Source of the DNA: a virus
DNA: 64,000 nt
IMG/VR virus record: IMGVR_UViG_3300043409_001462
Span: 109,385-173,384 of that record
Direction: 5' to 3' (one strand)
A program made the position numbers and the translations under genes. Position 1 is the stretch's first letter. The number at the start of each line of letters is the position of its first letter. Below, piece after piece: positions 673 to 53,802 of the stretch. The notes below the pieces were generated by a model that saw nothing but the letters and a program-made list of their open reading frames with translations, was not told where the DNA came from and did not search any database.

Positions 673-1278
673 ATGCAAAATGAAGTGATAAGTCTTTTCC
701 CAACAGCTGTTATGAAGTCTACATTGGACAGAAAACTTTCAAGAAAAGAAGTTAATTTTGTAAAGAAGAATTTTAAAAATATTAGAAGCAATTTGCAAAA
801 CAGTACTAGTTGTGATAATTATATTTTAGAAAACCAAGAATTTGTTTCTTTGAAAGAGTTTATTGAAACACAGTTAGATGTATATTACAGAAAAGTATTA
901 AATGTTGATACAAGCTCAAAGATCTACATTACACAATCATGGTTGAATTATTCTAAGCCAGGTGAATCACATCATCCACATACACATACTAATAGTTTTT
1001 TGAGTGGCGTATTCTACATTAGCACAAATGAAAATGATAGAATTTTCTTTAGAAAACAAAAAGAATTTATACATATACCACCAACTGTTTGTAATGTTTG
1101 GAATTCTGATTTGTGGGCATTGTCAGCTGTAGAAGGATATCTTTATATTTTTCCTTCAAACCTTGAGCATTATGTGGAAAAAATAACAGGTAGTAAAACA
1201 AGAATTAGTTTGAGTTTCAATTCATTCATATCTGGAAAAATTGGAGCTCCTGATTTCTTATCAGAATTAAAGATATAA
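673..1278 (+). CDS. 2OG-Fe(II) oxygenase (TIGR02466-like)
   Basis: SWLN...HHPHTH...SGVFY...IFPSNLEH...RISLSFN motif set. Confidence 0.85.
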   Translation: MQNEVISLFPTAVMKSTLDRKLSRKEVNFVKKNFKNIRSNLQNSTSCDNYILENQEFVSLKEFIETQLDVYYRKVLNVDTSSKIYITQSWLNYSKPGESHHPHTHTNSFLSGVFYISTNENDRIFFRKQKEFIHIPPTVCNVWNSDLWALSAVEGYLYIFPSNLEHYVEKITGSKTRISLSFNSFISGKIGAPDFLSELKI

Positions 1279-1357: not shown

Positions 1358-1432
1358 GGTGCCTGAGTAGGACGGTAATGCGCAGGTCTGCAAAACCTTG
1401 AGAACCCAGTTCAACTCTGGGAGGCACCTCCA
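1358..1432 (+). tRNA. tRNA-Cys(GCA)
   Basis: Loop CTGCAAA, U73, CCA. Confidence 0.92.
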
Positions 1433-1610: not shown

Positions 1611-2207
1611 ATGATTAGCAAACATTTATTGAATGAATTGAATTATATTGTAATTGATAGTGGTGTAAAGATGGAAGGTAATTTGTTTTACTACCATCAG
1701 ACGACACCATCTGATAATCTTTACGAACCTTTCGAAAAGAAACGTCAGAACCTACAGCTATTGGCTAAGAAGTTTGATAACATTATGGAGATCGGTTTCA
1801 ATGCTGGCCATAGTGCTGCTTTGATGCTCGAAGCCAATCCTAATCTGTTCTTGGTTAGCATCGATATTGGTGAACATAGCTATGTTTCTTCATGCGGAAA
1901 GGCTATTCAATCTGCTTTCCCTGGAAGGCACCAGCTTATCATCAAGGATTCGAAGCTTATCACTCAGAAAGAAATTAGCTTCGCTCAAGCTGTCATCGTT
2001 GATGGTGGTCATGAATTTGATGATTGCTCTGCAGACTTGGAGTTGTGTAAAACGTACTGCGCGCCAGGAACAGTTATCGTTATCGACGATATTGATTTGA
2101 ATGGAGTGCAGCTTGCGTATAGGCATCACTCTAGAAGTTTGTCAGTATGGAAAGATATTGAAACAATATATAACCAAGCTTTCTTCACATTAAACTCGCC
2201 CGAGTAG
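1611..2207 (+). CDS. Class I SAM-dependent methyltransferase (Methyltransf_24-like)
   Basis: MEIGFNAGHS, SIDIG, VDGGH, IVIDD motifs; stop codon lies inside the following tRNA-Leu. Confidence 0.8.
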   Translation: MISKHLLNELNYIVIDSGVKMEGNLFYYHQTTPSDNLYEPFEKKRQNLQLLAKKFDNIMEIGFNAGHSAALMLEANPNLFLVSIDIGEHSYVSSCGKAIQSAFPGRHQLIIKDSKLITQKEISFAQAVIVDGGHEFDDCSADLELCKTYCAPGTVIVIDDIDLNGVQLAYRHHSRSLSVWKDIETIYNQAFFTLNSPE

Positions 2208-2274
2208 TCCAATTGGCAGAGGCGCTGGTCTTAGAAACCAGATGTTGGGGGTTCAAATCCCTCCTCGGGCACCA
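2198..2274 (+). tRNA. tRNA-Leu(TAG), short variable loop
   Basis: Cloverleaf, loop CTTAGAA, A73, 5-nt variable loop, CCA. Confidence 0.9.
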
Positions 2275-2277
2275 TTT

Positions 2278-2391
2278 TAGGTTGTGTTCAGCATACAATG
2301 GATGAACCAGTCGGTCGGGTGTTCGAGTCACCCCAGGAGCTCCTTGCTTCTGTAGCTCAGTGGTAGAGCAACTGCCAAAAAGTACAACCTG
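2278..2391 (+). ncRNA. Array unit 1: YrlA-type Y-RNA-like RNA with circularly permuted tRNA domain
   Basis: Terminal stem TAGGTTGTG/TACAACCTG; inside, T arm (2317-2333), closed acceptor stem (2334-2352), D arm (2355-2369), anticodon-stem halves CAGT/ACTG. Confidence 0.85.
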
Positions 2392-2404
2392 TTGAAAATA
2401 GTGC

Positions 2405-2433
2405 TTGACTTATCCGTAGATAAAGCGTATTAT
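2405..2433 (+). promoter_or_regulatory. Sigma70-type promoter for array units 2-6 and the DUF2828 gene
   Basis: TTGACT-17-TATTAT, with the AGTGC upstream of -35 also seen at 13471 and 14548. Confidence 0.75.
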
Positions 2434-2449
2434 ATGTGTATTGAGTTTG

Positions 2450-2585
2450 AGATTGACCGTTCAGCAAACAGCTTTTGATCAAGCTAGTAGCCCCTGGGCT
2501 ACGTATAGACTGGCTTTATACCTGGTCTCCAGTGGTTGTTTCTTCGGGCGTCCACTATAAAAAAATGAAATAAGAAGTCAATCTG
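2450..2585 (+). ncRNA. Array unit 2: Y-RNA-like unit with multi-hairpin payload
   Basis: Stem AGATTGAC/GTCAATCT, GTTCAGCA motif, four internal hairpins. Confidence 0.7.
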
Positions 2586-2593
2586 TTGAGTTT

Positions 2594-2684
2594 TAGGAAG
2601 CATTCGGCAAACAATTATTGATTGGTTCAACTCCAATACCAGCGGTTCACGCTAGTACGCCTCGTGTGGGGCAACTGCTTCCTG
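2594..2684 (+). ncRNA. Array unit 3: Y-RNA-like unit with minimal permuted tRNA (T arm-acceptor-D arm)
   Basis: Stem AGGAAGCA/TGCTTCCT, TTCGGCA motif, T arm ATTGG-TTCAACT-CCAAT, 7-bp acceptor-like hairpin, D-like hairpin. Confidence 0.75.
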
Positions 2685-2692
2685 TTGAGTTC

Positions 2693-2752
2693 TAGGATTG
2701 TTACAGCATAAATGCACTTGATTTGTAATCAAACCCGCAAAGGGCAATCCTG
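2693..2752 (+). ncRNA. Array unit 4: Y-RNA-like unit with tRNA-Thr(UGU) anticodon arm
   Basis: Stem AGGATTGT/GCAATCCT, TACAGCA motif, TTGA-TTTGTAA-TCAA hairpin. Confidence 0.75.
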
Positions 2753-2760
2753 TTGAGTTT

Positions 2761-2814
2761 TAGGGTCAGTTCCGCATCTAAAATGATTGCATATATCAAA
2801 CCAAGATGACCCTG
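2761..2814 (+). ncRNA. Array unit 5: Y-RNA-like unit with 7-nt-loop hairpin
   Basis: Stem AGGGTCA/TGACCCT, GTTCCGCA motif, TGAT-TGCATAT-ATCA hairpin. Confidence 0.7.
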
Positions 2815-2821
2815 TTGAGTT

Positions 2822-2876
2822 TAGATTCAGTTCCGCAACCAATCAAATCGACTTGAAATCGACCAAAGTGAATCTG
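2822..2876 (+). ncRNA. Array unit 6: Y-RNA-like unit with Ser(UGA)-type anticodon arm
   Basis: Stem AGATTCA/TGAATCT, GTTCCGCA motif, TCGA-CTTGAAA-TCGA hairpin. Confidence 0.75.
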
Positions 2877-2896
2877 TCGTAAAATGGAGAAGTGAA

Positions 2897-4327
2897 ATGA
2901 ATACCTTTGTAAATGCCGTTGTTAATCAGGAAGCTCGTACCGAAAATGGTATGAAGGCTCGCCAGTCTACTGCTAATGCATTGACTGATCTGTTCTTCAA
3001 GATCGGTGCTATGCGTGGTCAGAATGTAATTCCTGCTTGGACTGCTGCTCGTGCTCATGATACTTTGCTTGCATCTCGTATCGCTCTTTGGGCACGTGAT
3101 GTTCGTGGTGGTGCTGGTGAACGTAAAATCTTCCGTGACATTTTAGTTGATCTTGCTTCAGCTGATCCTCATCGTGGTGTGGCTCTTGGTCGTAAGATTC
3201 CAGAGCTTGGTCGTTGGGATGACTTCCTTGTGTTCGTTGGTACCCCTCTTGAGGAGTATGCGTTCGAAACTATCCGCGAAGCTCTCGAAGCTGGTAATGG
3301 TCTCTGTGCAAAGTGGATGCCTCGTCAAGGTGAAACAGCTGTAAAGCTTCGTAAGTACCTTGGTTGGACTCCTAAGTTCTACCGAAAGCGTCTGGTTGAA
3401 TTGACCAAGGTTGTCGAAACTCAGATGTGCGCTAAGGACTGGGATAACATCAACTTCAACCATGTTCCTTCGGTTGCTTCTTCTCGTTACAAGAAGGCAT
3501 TCGCTCGTCATACTGACAAGTACAAGGAATGGACTGCGGCTCTTGTTTCTACTGATCCAGAGGTGGCTAAGTCTGTTAAGGTCAATGCTGGTGCGGTTTA
3601 TCCTTACGATGTGTTGAAGGGTGTGATTAATCATTATGGGCGTTATGATCAATCTAACTTGAATCATATCCTTGCTCAGTGGGAAGCTTTGCCTAACTTC
3701 GTTGGTAATGCTAACATTCTTCCGCTTGTTGACGTTTCTGGTTCAATGACTTCGAAGGCTGGTGGTTATCAGTCAAAGTCAGAAGTAACCTGCCTTGATG
3801 TTGCAGTTTCTCTTGGTCTGTATCTCGCAGACAAAAACAAGGGTAAGTTCAAGGATACTTTCTTGACCTTCTCTAGCGATCCTCAGCTGCTTCATCTTCG
3901 CGGTAACATCCTCGATAAGGTAAAGCAGATGGTATCTTCAAAGTGGGAAATGAACACCAATTTGCATCGTGCGTTGGATAAGATCCTTCGCACCGCGATT
4001 GAAGGTAACGTTCCTCAGTCAGAAATGCCAGGTGCATTGTTGATCCTTTCTGATATGCAGTTTGATTCTTGCACTCGTCACGATGACTCTGCTATGGAAA
4101 TGATTAAGCGTAAGTATGTTGATGCTGGTTACAATGTACCTAACATTGTGTTCTGGAATCTCAATGCTCACGACAATGTTCCTGTCAAGTATGACACTCG
4201 TGGTGCTGCTCTTGTTTCTGGTTTCTCACCTTCTATCGTTAAGGCTGTTCTGCAGGCTGAGATGGATAACTTTACGCCAGAAGCTATCATGATGCAAACC
4301 ATTATGAACCCACGATATGACTACTAA
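2897..4327 (+). CDS. DUF2828-family protein with C-terminal vWA domain (putatively Ro60/TROVE-like)
   Basis: ARDVRGGAGER, GRWDD, AKWMPR, MIDAS DVSGSM, LSDMQFD, IVFWNL, VSGFS motifs; GGAGA RBS; strong highly-expressed codon bias. Confidence 0.8.
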   Translation: MNTFVNAVVNQEARTENGMKARQSTANALTDLFFKIGAMRGQNVIPAWTAARAHDTLLASRIALWARDVRGGAGERKIFRDILVDLASADPHRGVALGRKIPELGRWDDFLVFVGTPLEEYAFETIREALEAGNGLCAKWMPRQGETAVKLRKYLGWTPKFYRKRLVELTKVVETQMCAKDWDNINFNHVPSVASSRYKKAFARHTDKYKEWTAALVSTDPEVAKSVKVNAGAVYPYDVLKGVINHYGRYDQSNLNHILAQWEALPNFVGNANILPLVDVSGSMTSKAGGYQSKSEVTCLDVAVSLGLYLADKNKGKFKDTFLTFSSDPQLLHLRGNILDKVKQMVSSKWEMNTNLHRALDKILRTAIEGNVPQSEMPGALLILSDMQFDSCTRHDDSAMEMIKRKYVDAGYNVPNIVFWNLNAHDNVPVKYDTRGAALVSGFSPSIVKAVLQAEMDNFTPEAIMMQTIMNPRYDY

Positions 4328-4396
4328 GGAAAAGCTTATAGTATTCCTTATGCTAATGTGGATGCCCATTGTTGTGATGGGCATCCTATTCTTCAC

Positions 4397-4472
4397 GCTG
4401 CAATAGCTCAGTTGGTAGAGCACTTGATTAGTAATCAAGATGTCGCGAGTTCGATCCTTGCTTGCAGCACCA
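4397..4472 (+). tRNA. tRNA-Thr(AGT)
   Basis: Perfect cloverleaf, stem CTTGA/TCAAG, loop TTAGTAA, CCA. Confidence 0.9.
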
Positions 4473-52630: not shown

Positions 52631-53802
52631 TGGATGATACTGACTTAGACGACTTCATTGAAGAAACAAAAGAAGGCACTTTAAAATCTAACTCTCGATT
52701 GATTTATGATATAAATCAGCTAGATACAGAATCTTCTGATTTCCATGAAAAGTTAACTAGAATAATTTACCTTTTGGTTACAAAAAAACCAATGGTTGTT
52801 AATTACGCTAAGTTAGATAGAAGAACAGCTTGGTCTAAGTACTTAAGAGAAAATAACATACCAAATAATAGTTTGATGGCGAATGTTATCAAATCTCTTG
52901 GTAAGGTTGGTGATGTTGGTAAAATACATGATAATGTATTAAATTTATATGAAGATAATTATCACAACACTAGATTTTTTATCCGTTATCTTAACTCGTT
53001 AAAGAACGAAGATAAAGTTCCATATCTAGGAGTTGCACTTAATTCTATTAGTGAATTTATTTTTGAACATCCTATCAAAAATTTAAATGATCTTAAAAAA
53101 TTGATGATGTTATCTGAAACAGAAATTGTTGAAAAGCTCACAGAAATTTCTAATAAGATAGGTGGTCTTAAGAGAATAAGTGGCGAGACAAATACTGATT
53201 GTAATATGTATTCTTGGATTCCTTTAGAATTCGAATATGATAGAGAGTTCATAAAGAATGCTGATATAGCATATGATTTAGGTGGAGGATTTACTACACC
53301 TCACCTAAGTTATCTTTTCGAAAAAGAAATGATAAGTTTAGACAGGATTAATCCTGCTATAGCAAAAGAGAACAAAATTAAAATTGTTAATCCTAAACAT
53401 GTTCCTTTAGAAGATTACTACGATGCTTTGTCAAAGCAAAAGTGGCAACCTTTCGATGTGTTCATTGACAGTATAGATGATAGCTACGATAGCTATTTTG
53501 TAACAAGCTTTGGTTTCACTACGTCAACTGTAGCGCCTCATAAAGATATAAAAAGCGAAGACGAAAATATGAACACGTTTCATACTTCGTTTCATGCACT
53601 AAAAGTTATAACTGAATTGATTGCAAAAAACAAAACAGTATATTTCTTTCTTTATGGTAGACCAACAGGAAGAGTTTATCAAAATAAAATTATTTCTATG
53701 AAGTTTATAAATAAAAAGTTAGTAAGGTACAATTTTTATGTTGATATATACTCTAGTAAAACGAAACACAATTTCGGCGTAACAAAGTTAGTATCATTAT
53801 AA
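52630..53802 (+). CDS. Hypothetical protein, possible SAM-binding fold
   Basis: AT-rich; AYDLGGG...SLD motif. Confidence 0.6.
   Translation: MDDTDLDDFIEETKEGTLKSNSRLIYDINQLDTESSDFHEKLTRIIYLLVTKKPMVVNYAKLDRRTAWSKYLRENNIPNNSLMANVIKSLGKVGDVGKIHDNVLNLYEDNYHNTRFFIRYLNSLKNEDKVPYLGVALNSISEFIFEHPIKNLNDLKKLMMLSETEIVEKLTEISNKIGGLKRISGETNTDCNMYSWIPLEFEYDREFIKNADIAYDLGGGFTTPHLSYLFEKEMISLDRINPAIAKENKIKIVNPKHVPLEDYYDALSKQKWQPFDVFIDSIDDSYDSYFVTSFGFTTSTVAPHKDIKSEDENMNTFHTSFHALKVITELIAKNKTVYFFLYGRPTGRVYQNKIISMKFINKKLVRYNFYVDIYSSKTKHNFGVTKLVSL

What the first reader, a model, noticed from the sequence alone, without database searches (positions are those of the whole stretch)
2278..4327. Six-unit Y-RNA-like array displaying tRNA parts, feeding into a DUF2828/vWA (Ro60-like) gene: candidate new phage RNP system
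Seen: six tandem units (2278-2391, 2450-2585, 2594-2684, 2693-2752, 2761-2814, 2822-2876). Each has the frame AG-N5/6...N5/6-CT-G with a different but complementary terminal stem: AGGTTGT/ACAACCT, AGATTGAC/GTCAATCT, AGGAAGCA/TGCTTCCT, AGGATTG/CAATCCT, AGGGTCA/TGACCCT, AGATTCA/TGAATCT. That is covariation within one locus. An unpaired motif follows the 5' strand (GTTCAGCA, GTTCAGCA, ATTCGGCA, TTACAGCA, GTTCCGCA, GTTCCGCA), and a GTTGAGTT(T/C) linker joins units 2-6. Payloads vary: permuted tRNA bodies in units 1 and 3, anticodon-arm hairpins in units 4-6. The array has its own promoter (2405-2433) and ends 20 nt before the ATG of a highly expressed 476-aa helical + vWA protein. Established: Ro60/Rsr (TROVE + vWA) binds Y RNAs through a stem formed by their 5' and 3' ends, and bacterial YrlA RNAs carry a permuted tRNA domain. 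Inference: a constant protein-binding handle plus swappable tRNA-mimic payloads, i.e. a modular RNP repertoire, possibly decoys for host tRNA-cleaving defence nucleases or adaptors for RNA repair/decay. I know of no description of such an array or of RNA partners for DUF2828, but I could not search.
Basis: partly seen in the sequence, partly recalled or inferred. Interest (0 to 1): 0.96.

Follow-up and report, generated by a model that had tools for sequence, protein, structure and literature searches.

The report
Phage Ro60-like protein with partner-RNA array
A 173-kb phage carries six small folded RNA genes that share one conserved "handle", just ahead of a gene for a ring protein shaped like the RNA-surveillance protein Ro60. 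The same RNA-protein pairing recurs in many unrelated phages, so it looks like an undescribed branch of the Ro60/Y-RNA particle.

Summary
Six tandem units (2279-2875) each have a different 7-8 bp closing stem, the motif UUCMGCA (U4: UACAGCA) just after the 5' strand, and a G after the 3' strand. Covariance models find five of the six and nothing else in the 173-kb genome.

The handle is conserved. All 71 related metagenomic loci with upstream sequence have 1-7 units ahead of the homologous gene. Units with the core CAGCAA also flank the gene in Synechococcus, Felixounavirus, Listeria, Staphylococcus, Enterococcus, Campylobacter and mycobacteriophage genomes. The stem covaries at all seven pairs.

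The 476-aa protein (DUF2828+DUF7788, PHROG 850) is predicted at pLDDT 94 to fold like Ro60 (Z 21 to Xenopus Ro60, intact MIDAS).

- U1 is a YrlA-like tRNA mimic.
- U4 carries an 18/19-nt copy of the phage's own tRNA-Thr anticodon arm.
- U6 has the tRNA-Ser(UGA) anticodon loop.

Most likely these are partner RNAs of the Ro60-like protein, with one handle and varied payloads. Binding, processing and biological role are untested.

The protein's Ro60 likeness is already published. I found no paper or Rfam family for the RNA family. Its build matches the Dictyostelium Class I RNAs. This scan has found the same pairing on other genomes.

The parts
2198..2274 (+). tRNA-Leu(UAG), ending 4 nt before U1. 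It suggests that U1 is co-transcribed and processed with the upstream tRNA cluster.
   Evidence: ARAGORN; Rfam tRNA 60.6 bits.
2279..2391 (+). Unit 1: stem AGGTTGT/ACAACCT, motif GTTCAGCA, trailing G. The payload is a YrlA-like permuted tRNA domain (T arm, stem-loop, D arm).
   Evidence: Rfam YrlA RF02553 39.1 bits, E 5.5e-7, below the gathering score of 69. R1 30.2 bits and R2 27.8 bits as a held-out sequence. A 20-nt D arm is identical to phage tRNA-Met at 4632.
2405..2433 (+). Sigma-70-like promoter candidate (TTGACT-17-TATTAT) between U1 and U2.
   Evidence: 10/12 match, but the number of such sites in the region equals that in shuffles. It remains a candidate only.
2450..2585 (+). Unit 2: stem AGATTGAC/GTCAATCT, motif CGTTCAGCA, a 109-nt payload of several hairpins of unknown kind, trailing G.
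   Evidence: Sequence. Rule-based scan. Fold closes the terminal stem. Orthologous units in L001 and L002. Missed by both covariance models.
2595..2684 (+). Unit 3: stem AGGAAGCA/TGCTTCCT, motif TTCGGCA. The payload has a T-arm-like hairpin (UUGG-UUCAACU-CCAA); a tRNA-like body is not demonstrated.
   Evidence: R2 26.9 bits, E 6e-4, held out. No Rfam match. No significant similarity to the phage tRNAs.
2694..2752 (+). Unit 4: stem AGGATTG/CAATCCT, motif TTACAGCA. The payload hairpin copies the anticodon arm of the phage tRNA-Thr(AGU), with anticodon UGU.
   Evidence: R1 36.4 bits, held out. 18/19 nt identical to tRNA-Thr(AGU) at 4397-4472; score 16.5 against a null maximum of 12.
2762..2814 (+). 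Unit 5: stem AGGGTCA/TGACCCT, motif GTTCCGCA. Payload hairpin with loop UGCAUAU; the UGCAU loop type recurs in relatives.
   Evidence: R1 61.6 bits. Orthologous units in many loci.
2823..2876 (+). Unit 6 (proximal): stem AGATTCA/TGAATCT, motif GTTCCGCA. Payload hairpin with loop CUUGAAA. The unit ends 10 nt before the Shine-Dalgarno GGAG (2886-2889) and 21 nt before the ATG.
   Evidence: R1 52.6 bits. The loop is identical to the anticodon loop of the phage tRNA-Ser(UGA). In 59 of 71 related loci the last unit ends 10-25 nt before the ATG.
2897..4327 (+). Gene for the 476-aa Ro60-like protein: HEAT-repeat ring plus vWA domain with an intact MIDAS site (D279, S281, S283, T354, D386).
   Evidence: Pfam DUF2828 + DUF7788. 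PHROG 850 'RNA-binding protein', E 5e-137. AF2 pLDDT 94.4, pTM 0.92. The top 13 Foldseek hits are all Ro60. Z 21.3 to 1yvr over 404 residues. Invariant columns.
4360..4386 (+). Terminator-like hairpin (12 bp, then a T-rich tail) closing the array-plus-gene unit before the next tRNA cluster.

Best explanation
The array encodes six members of a widespread, so far undescribed family of Y-RNA-like noncoding RNAs. These are most likely the partner RNAs of the adjacent Ro60-like protein.

Each RNA is closed by a 7-8 bp stem formed from its 5' and 3' ends. The stem sequence differs between units, which keeps neighbouring units from mispairing. Next to the stem lies an asymmetric internal loop. Its 5' side carries the conserved UUCMGCAA (family-wide core CAGCAA) and its 3' side is A-rich. 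An invariant G follows the stem.

By analogy with Ro60 and Y RNA, this handle is the likely docking site for the ring protein. The variable payload would decide what else the particle engages:
- a YrlA-like tRNA mimic in U1;
- a copy of the anticodon arm of the phage's own tRNA-Thr in U4;
- a tRNA-Ser(UGA)-type anticodon loop in U6;
- other hairpins in U2, U3 and U5.

The units are probably cut out of a precursor made together with the neighbouring tRNAs and the gene's mRNA. The proximal unit sits next to the ribosome-binding site, so it could also let the protein limit its own translation.

Shown here: the RNA family, its covariation, its exclusive co-location with the gene, and the protein fold. 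Inferred: binding, processing and biological role. The role is most plausibly handling of tRNA-like RNAs or countering a host defence.
For: Stem covariation:
- In 34 diverse units, 100% of cells pair and all 7 pairs change on both sides. The covariation score is 1.02 against 0.24 in shuffles and at most 0.18 when the partner columns are slid.
- The same holds for 43 units of the close clade.

Specific co-location with the gene:
- 174 of 174 R1 hits in 80 loci lie on the gene's strand.
- All 71 loci with upstream sequence have a unit within 1.2 kb upstream, with 232 rule-based hits on the gene strand against 30 on the opposite strand.
- Whole-genome scans of four named phages hit only within about 1 kb of the gene. 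The same holds for the window's own genome.

Units in distant named phages:
- Found in seven of the nine named phages examined, upstream or downstream of the gene.
- Held-out detection in the Enterococcus phage and of window units U1 and U3.

Protein fold:
- pLDDT 94.4. Only Ro60 chains match at full length, Z 14-21, while vWA-only hits reach at most 11.8.
- The MIDAS residues are invariant.

Precedents:
- Rsr with YrlA in bacteria and 22 phages (PMC4201824).
- Thermus phage Ro60 binds two RNAs encoded upstream of its gene (PMC12135203).
- Felixounavirus gp130 is Ro60-like and counters the Ppl defence (PMC11482910).

tRNA-derived payloads. In addition, 23 of 34 seven-nt payload loops fit the anticodon-loop pattern Y-U-NNN-R-N.
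Against: - No binding, expression or processing data exist for this family.
- Co-location does not prove partnership.
- The handle motif (CAGCAA) differs from the Ro60-binding motifs known for Y RNAs (GGUCCGA, GNCGAA).
- For the look-alike Dictyostelium Class I RNAs, the one direct binder shown is an RRM protein, Rnp1A (PMC7919456).
- No clear units were found beside the homologues in Serratia phage BF or Vibrio phage phi-pp2.
- The units used for the covariation counts were picked by a script that required a stem, so percent paired is inflated; the double changes in a fixed register are not.
- Many units are orthologues, so loop counts are not independent.
- This phage has no RtcB, Rnl1 or Rnl2 match (the Rnl1 control matched nothing anywhere), so an RNA-repair role has no local support.
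Confidence: 0.7

Rival explanations
1. The units are primarily cis-acting leader elements of the Ro60-like mRNA. The protein, or another factor, binds the proximal unit and controls translation. The array is a regulatory 5' UTR rather than a set of trans-acting RNAs.
For: The last unit ends 10-25 nt before the ATG in 59 of 71 related loci. In the window it ends 10 nt before the Shine-Dalgarno sequence. A terminator follows the gene, so array and gene can form one transcript.
Against: In Felixounavirus EC6, mycobacteriophage CELFI and a Staphylococcus phage the units lie downstream of the gene. Arrays reach 7 units, with tRNA-like payloads that a leader does not need. This role can coexist with the best explanation.
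Confidence: 0.1
2. The RNAs are real and travel with the gene, but they bind a different protein (a host or phage factor, such as an RRM or tRNA-binding protein). The Ro60-like protein acts on them, or on other RNAs, only indirectly.
For: The only direct binder shown for the similarly built Class I RNAs is the RRM protein Rnp1A. The handle motif is unlike known Ro60-binding motifs.
Against: The units lie strictly beside the gene, on its strand, across very distant phages, and nowhere else in whole genomes. Every studied Ro60 has partner RNAs encoded next to its gene.
Confidence: 0.12
3. The units are by-products of the tRNA cluster, such as decayed tRNA pieces, processing signals or repeats, with no function of their own.
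For: They sit inside tRNA clusters in several phages. U1 and U4 contain tRNA-derived segments.
Against: Compensatory changes occur at every stem pair, and a conserved motif spans phages of Gram-positive, Gram-negative and cyanobacterial hosts. The window's other tRNA genes (16102, 52217, 53805, 55057) have no units. CELFI has units but no annotated tRNA in the 6.4-kb locus fetched.
Confidence: 0.03

Closest known systems
Ro60 (Rsr) with Y RNAs, especially bacterial and phage YrlA/YrlB (Rfam RF02553; Chen et al. 2014, PMC4201824) and Thermus phage phiLo Ro60 with Yrl1/Yrl2 (PMC12135203)
   Same: A ring protein of HEAT repeats plus a vWA/MIDAS domain. Small RNAs are encoded beside its gene on the same strand. 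Each RNA is closed by a stem of its 5' and 3' ends, next to a conserved unpaired motif. One RNA (U1) carries a permuted tRNA-like domain that Rfam's YrlA model recognises.
   Different: The protein is only 11-17% identical to Ro60 chains over the structural alignments. It matches Pfam DUF2828/DUF7788, with no TROVE match up to E 1. The handle motif is CAGCAA/UUCMGCAA rather than GNCGAA or GGUCCGA. Arrays hold up to 6-7 units, most with short hairpin payloads rather than tRNA-like bodies. U1 is below Rfam's gathering score. Binding is untested.
Dictyostelium Class I RNAs (Aspegren 2004; Avesson 2011; Kjellin et al. 2021, PMC7919456)
   Same: The build is the same and in the same register: G-N5 closing stem, then (CC)UUACAGCAA, a variable region ending A-rich/CC, the 3' strand ending C, then UG. 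Lengths are 42-65 nt, like U4-U6.
   Different: Class I RNAs are single genes with their own eukaryotic promoter (DUSE). They are reported as unique to dictyostelids and are known to bind the RRM protein Rnp1A. No link to a DUF2828 protein has been reported. The window's units mostly read UUCMGCA rather than UUACAGCAA. Common descent was not tested.
Felixounavirus Bas63 gp130 (PhageMaP preprint, PMC11482910)
   Same: Most likely the same protein family. I tested the Felixounavirus EC6 homologue (36% identical, sitting upstream of a tRNA cluster), not Bas63 itself. gp130 was noted as Ro60-like by structure, with a phenotype as a counter to the Ppl defence system.
   Different: The authors only guessed that some annotated tRNAs might be Y RNAs. 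In EC6, the CAGCAA-handle units lying between the tRNA genes are the better candidates. Whether the window's protein counters any defence is unknown.

Membership tests
Ro60/TROVE protein family | Ring of HEAT-like helical repeats followed by a vWA domain, superposable on solved Ro60 structures | tested here: met
   AF2 pLDDT 94.4. Foldseek ranks 1-13 are all Ro60, TM 0.47-0.63. Z 21.3, rmsd 3.9 over 404 residues to 1yvr. Z 16.7 to phage phiLo 9kop. vWA-only hits reach at most 11.8.
Ro60/TROVE protein family | MIDAS motif in the vWA domain (DxSxS, T, D) | tested here: met
   D279, S281, S283, T354 and D386 are invariant in 132 sequences.
Ro60/TROVE protein family | Significant sequence match to the TROVE domain or to Ro60 sequences | tested here: not met
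   Pfam gives only DUF2828 + DUF7788. phmmer against PDB finds no Ro60. A profile of 132 sequences reaches Ro60 chains only at E 0.04-0.1, over the start of the vWA domain.
Ro60/TROVE protein family | Binds Y RNA through the stem formed by the RNA's ends | not testable with these tools
   Needs EMSA, RIP or a structure.
YrlA (Rfam RF02553) | Score at or above the curated gathering threshold (69 bits) | tested here: not met
   U1 scores 39.1 bits, E 5.5e-7. The other units give no match.
YrlA (Rfam RF02553) | Permuted tRNA-like domain (T arm, stem-loop, D arm) inside a closing stem | tested here: met
   For U1 only: the cmscan alignment covers the T and D arms, and a 20-nt D arm is identical to a phage tRNA.
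YrlA (Rfam RF02553) | GNCGAAN0-1G motif near the 5' end | tested here: not met
   U1 has GUUCAGCA at that place. No unit has CGAA there.
YrlA (Rfam RF02553) | Encoded within 4 kb of the Ro60 gene on the same strand | tested here: met
   U1 lies 506 nt upstream of the ATG on the + strand.
Dictyostelium Class I RNA | Short stem joining the 5' and 3' ends, with structure but not sequence conserved | tested here: met
   Aligned in register with four Class I RNAs.
Dictyostelium Class I RNA | 11-nt motif CCUUACAGCAA next to the 5' strand (U3, C6, C9, A10, A11 most conserved) | tested here: inconclusive
   U4 has UUACAGCA. The other window units have UUCMGCA(A), which keeps C6, C9 and A10; A11 is kept in U2, U3 and U6 only. 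Distant phages have UUACAGCAA or UAACAGCAA.
Dictyostelium Class I RNA | Own upstream DUSE promoter; occurrence in dictyostelids | tested here: not met
   This is a phage locus with tandem units and no eukaryotic promoter.
DUF2828/DUF7788 (PHROG 850) protein family | Matches above the curated cut-offs | tested here: met
   PF25043 164 bits and PF11443 63.4 bits. phrog_850 458.6 bits over the full length.

The most novel reading that the evidence does not exclude
The CAGCAA-handle RNAs and the DUF2828-type Ro60-like proteins form one ancient ribonucleoprotein found in phages, other viruses and cells. The orphan Class I RNAs of social amoebae would be its eukaryotic branch, and a DUF2828 protein would be their missing partner. 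In phages, the payloads would present tRNA parts (whole tRNA mimics, anticodon arms) to intercept or redirect host factors that act on tRNA, which might relate to the reported Ppl counter-defence activity of the Felixounavirus homologue.
Probability: 0.3. Interest if true: 0.9.

Novelty: new variant of a known kind. Interest (0 to 1): 0.8.

Why it matters
The protein family is very common. It occurs in 711 of 50,697 deposited phage records, including Felixounavirus and Listeria phage groups that I know are used in biocontrol. More than 6,000 protein clusters at 50% identity match it.

If the RNAs defined here are its partners, that gives a concrete, testable handle (stem plus CAGCAA) for a protein already linked to one anti-defence phenotype. 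It would extend the Ro60/Y-RNA idea to a second, much larger protein branch with modular RNA arrays. It would also offer a lead on the function of the Dictyostelium Class I RNAs, whose mechanism is still unknown.

This window is a good example for experiments. One array holds a YrlA-like tRNA mimic, an exact anticodon-arm copy of the phage's own tRNA, and short hairpin units.

Tried and rejected
- **Motif-spacer pairing.** I considered that UUCAGCA pairs with the downstream spacer UGUUGAG, as a pseudoknot or an alternative hairpin with the upstream spacer. Rejected: motif variants in U4-U6 are not compensated, and the spacer is absent outside the closest relatives, where only the G after the stem is invariant.
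- **Rfam.** Apart from tRNA and the sub-threshold YrlA match, only chance-level hits appeared (PreQ1, SAM-II, CAESAR, at E 0.5 or higher).
- **Sequence searches against PDB.** These gave no usable Ro60 match. Only the fold comparison did.
- **RNA-repair link.** RtcB and Rnl2 are absent from this phage genome. The Rnl1 search is uninformative because its control matched nothing anywhere.
- **Serratia phage BF and Vibrio phage phi-pp2.** No convincing units were found.
- **Campylobacter phage.** Units are seen by rule but were not recovered at E < 0.01 in the whole-genome scan.
- **Weak R1 hit at 53340-53397 (-).** It lacks the motif and is taken as chance.
- **First rule-based strand comparison.** It was too permissive (356 against 184) and also failed with a script error. 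It was replaced by stricter rules.
- **Literature searches.** Searches for DUF2828, Ro60 with CAGCAA, Ro-like with phage and noncoding RNA, and Ro60 with anti-defense found no description of the RNA family.
Full report
**What is in the window.** The window is the last 64 kb of a complete 173,384-bp virus record. The genome has 29 ARAGORN tRNA calls, one of them labelled tRNA-SeC; 22 tRNA genes lie in the window.

Each has:
- a 7-8 bp closing stem with a unit-specific sequence;
- the motif UUCMGCA (U4: UACAGCA) directly after the 5' strand;
- a variable interior;
- a G after the 3' strand.

Single-sequence folds close the terminal stem in all six units. Folding z-scores are about -2 to -2.4 for U1-U5 and -0.9 for U6. 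A terminator-like hairpin follows the gene at 4360-4386. The promoter-like site at 2405-2433 exists but is not statistically distinctive.

**Is it more than chance, and is it conserved?** A search with the protein fetched 80 viral-metagenome loci whose homologues are 61-93% identical.

- A motif-plus-stem scan found the same architecture 1-7 times upstream of the gene.
- With stricter rules, all 71 loci that have upstream sequence carry at least one unit within 1.2 kb upstream. There were 232 hits on the gene strand against 30 on the other strand.
- In 59 of 71 loci the last unit ends 10-25 nt before the ATG.
- A covariance model of 43 short units (R1) gave 174 hits at E < 0.01 in those loci, all on the gene strand.
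- In the window, R1 found only U5, U6, U4 and U1. In the whole phage genome it found only the array.

The stem covaries. Five pairs show double-sided changes in the close clade.

**How far does the family reach?** tblastn finds the protein in 711 deposited phage records, where it is annotated 'RNA-binding protein', 'Ro-like RNA binding protein', 'vWFA protein' or hypothetical. I fetched nine distant examples. Units with the same build, now with the core (U/A)ACAGCAA, lie beside the gene in seven of them:

| Phage | Units | Position relative to the gene |
|---|---|---|
| Synechococcus phage BUCT-ZZ01 | 3 | upstream |
| Felixounavirus EC6 | 4 | downstream, between tRNA genes |
| Campylobacter phage F357 | 2 | upstream |
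| Listeria phage LP-048 | 3 | upstream |
| Mycobacteriophage CELFI | 3 | downstream |
| Staphylococcus phage S-CoN_Ph2 | 3 | downstream |
| Enterococcus phage EA1 | 3 | upstream; two are sub-threshold YrlA matches |

An alignment of 34 units across these lineages pairs in 100% of cells, and all seven pairs change on both sides. One caveat applies: the units were picked with a stem requirement, but the register relative to the motif and to the invariant 3' G is fixed.

Model R2, built from that alignment, was used for whole-genome scans. In EC6, LP-048, CELFI and the Staphylococcus phage it hit only within about 1 kb of the gene, on its strand. It also detected held-out units: the third Enterococcus unit, and window U1 and U3. 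No Rfam family covers these RNAs.

**The protein.** It matches Pfam DUF2828 + DUF7788 and PHROG 850. With a 132-sequence alignment AlphaFold2 gives pLDDT 94.4 and pTM 0.92.

- The 13 best Foldseek matches in the PDB are all Ro60: Xenopus, human, Deinococcus Rsr and Thermus phage phiLo.
- The second aligner gives Z 21.3 over 404 residues to 1yvr and Z 16.7 to phiLo Ro60. vWA-only proteins stop at Z 11.8.
- The MIDAS residues are invariant.
- Sequence-level similarity to Ro60 is marginal.

So this is a structurally Ro60-like but sequence-divergent branch.

**Payloads.**
- **U1.** It matches Rfam YrlA at 39.1 bits, E 5.5e-7, and shares a 20-nt D arm with a phage tRNA-Met.
- **U4.** It contains an 18/19-nt copy of the D-stem and anticodon arm of the phage's own tRNA-Thr(AGU) at 4397-4472. 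The one difference changes the anticodon to UGU. The score is well above all shuffles.
- **U6.** Its 7-nt loop CUUGAAA equals the anticodon loop of the phage tRNA-Ser(UGA). This loop is the commonest one in proximal units of relatives.
- **Across short units.** 34 of 74 hairpins have 7-nt loops, and 23 fit Y-U-NNN-R-N. Many of these are orthologues, so the counts are not independent.
- **U2, U3, U5.** They show no significant tRNA similarity. U3 has only a T-arm-like hairpin by eye. The U5 loop does not fit the anticodon pattern.

**Comparison with what is known.**
- Ro60 with Y RNAs is the functional model. YrlA RNAs lie beside TROVE-type Ro60 in 254 bacteria and 22 phages, and carry a GNCGAA motif.
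- Thermus phage Ro60 binds two RNAs encoded upstream of its gene and recruits PNPase.
- A preprint reports that the Felixounavirus Bas63 homologue, gp130, is Ro60-like and counters the Ppl defence. It only guesses that some neighbouring tRNA genes are Y RNAs.
- I found no paper describing the CAGCAA-handle RNAs in phages.
- Earlier notes of this scan report the same pairing in many other genomes and point to Dictyostelium Class I RNAs. I checked that lead. Class I sequences from the paper's supplement read G-N5 stem, CCUUACAGCAA, variable region, N5'-C, UG. They align in register with the phage units. Their known direct binder is an RRM protein, and they were reported as unique to dictyostelids.

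**Mechanism.** The best-supported reading is a modular Ro60-like particle, with one handle for the ring protein and payloads that select other partners. The proximal unit is placed where bound protein could also limit translation.

What is shown is the RNA family, its covariation, its exclusive co-location with the gene, and the protein fold. Binding, processing and biological role are inferred. An RNA-repair role has no local support, since I found no RtcB or Rnl2 match in this genome. RNA ligase genes do sit near the homologue in Serratia phage BF and Listeria phage LP-048. The decoy idea fits the anticodon-arm payloads but remains speculative.

Noticed in passing
window 4397-4472: The phage encodes a tRNA-Thr with anticodon AGU (A at the wobble position), which to my knowledge is unusual for bacteria-type tRNA sets. 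Its anticodon arm is the one copied, with U34, into unit 4.
   Followed up: partly
G000:C1:109305-109382 (ends 2 nt before window base 1): ARAGORN calls a 'tRNA-SeC' with anticodon UCA, a possible UGA-reading (suppressor-like) tRNA at the head of the tRNA cluster.
   Followed up: no
window 1358-1429: Rfam calls a tRNA here (43.9 bits) that ARAGORN does not report.
   Followed up: no
window 673-1278 and 1611-2207: A 2OG-Fe(II) oxygenase (PF13759) and a methyltransferase (PF13578) are embedded in the tRNA cluster just upstream of the array. They may be nucleic-acid-modifying or repair enzymes.
   Followed up: no
L089 about 1860-1895, 2045-2080, 2225-2262: In Enterococcus phage EA1, each of the three units is preceded by a conserved leader hairpin (GUUCC...GGAAC, then AUAAAGAA). 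This extra module was not seen in the other lineages.
   Followed up: no
L083 819-2078; L086 5352-6503: An RNA ligase gene lies about 420 nt upstream of the Ro60-like gene, one small gene between them, in Serratia phage BF. An RtcB-like ligase lies 1.3 kb downstream in Listeria phage LP-048. This echoes the bacterial rsr-yrlA-rtcBA operon.
   Followed up: partly
L058 4465-4531 (also L059, L060, L062, L063); L035 4530-4590: In some metagenomic relatives a unit also lies just downstream of the gene, so arrays can flank it on both sides.
   Followed up: no
window 53340-53397 (-): A weak R1 match (E 0.19) with an AGGAUUA/UAAUCCU stem but no CAGCAA-type motif, near a second tRNA group. It is probably chance.
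   Followed up: partly
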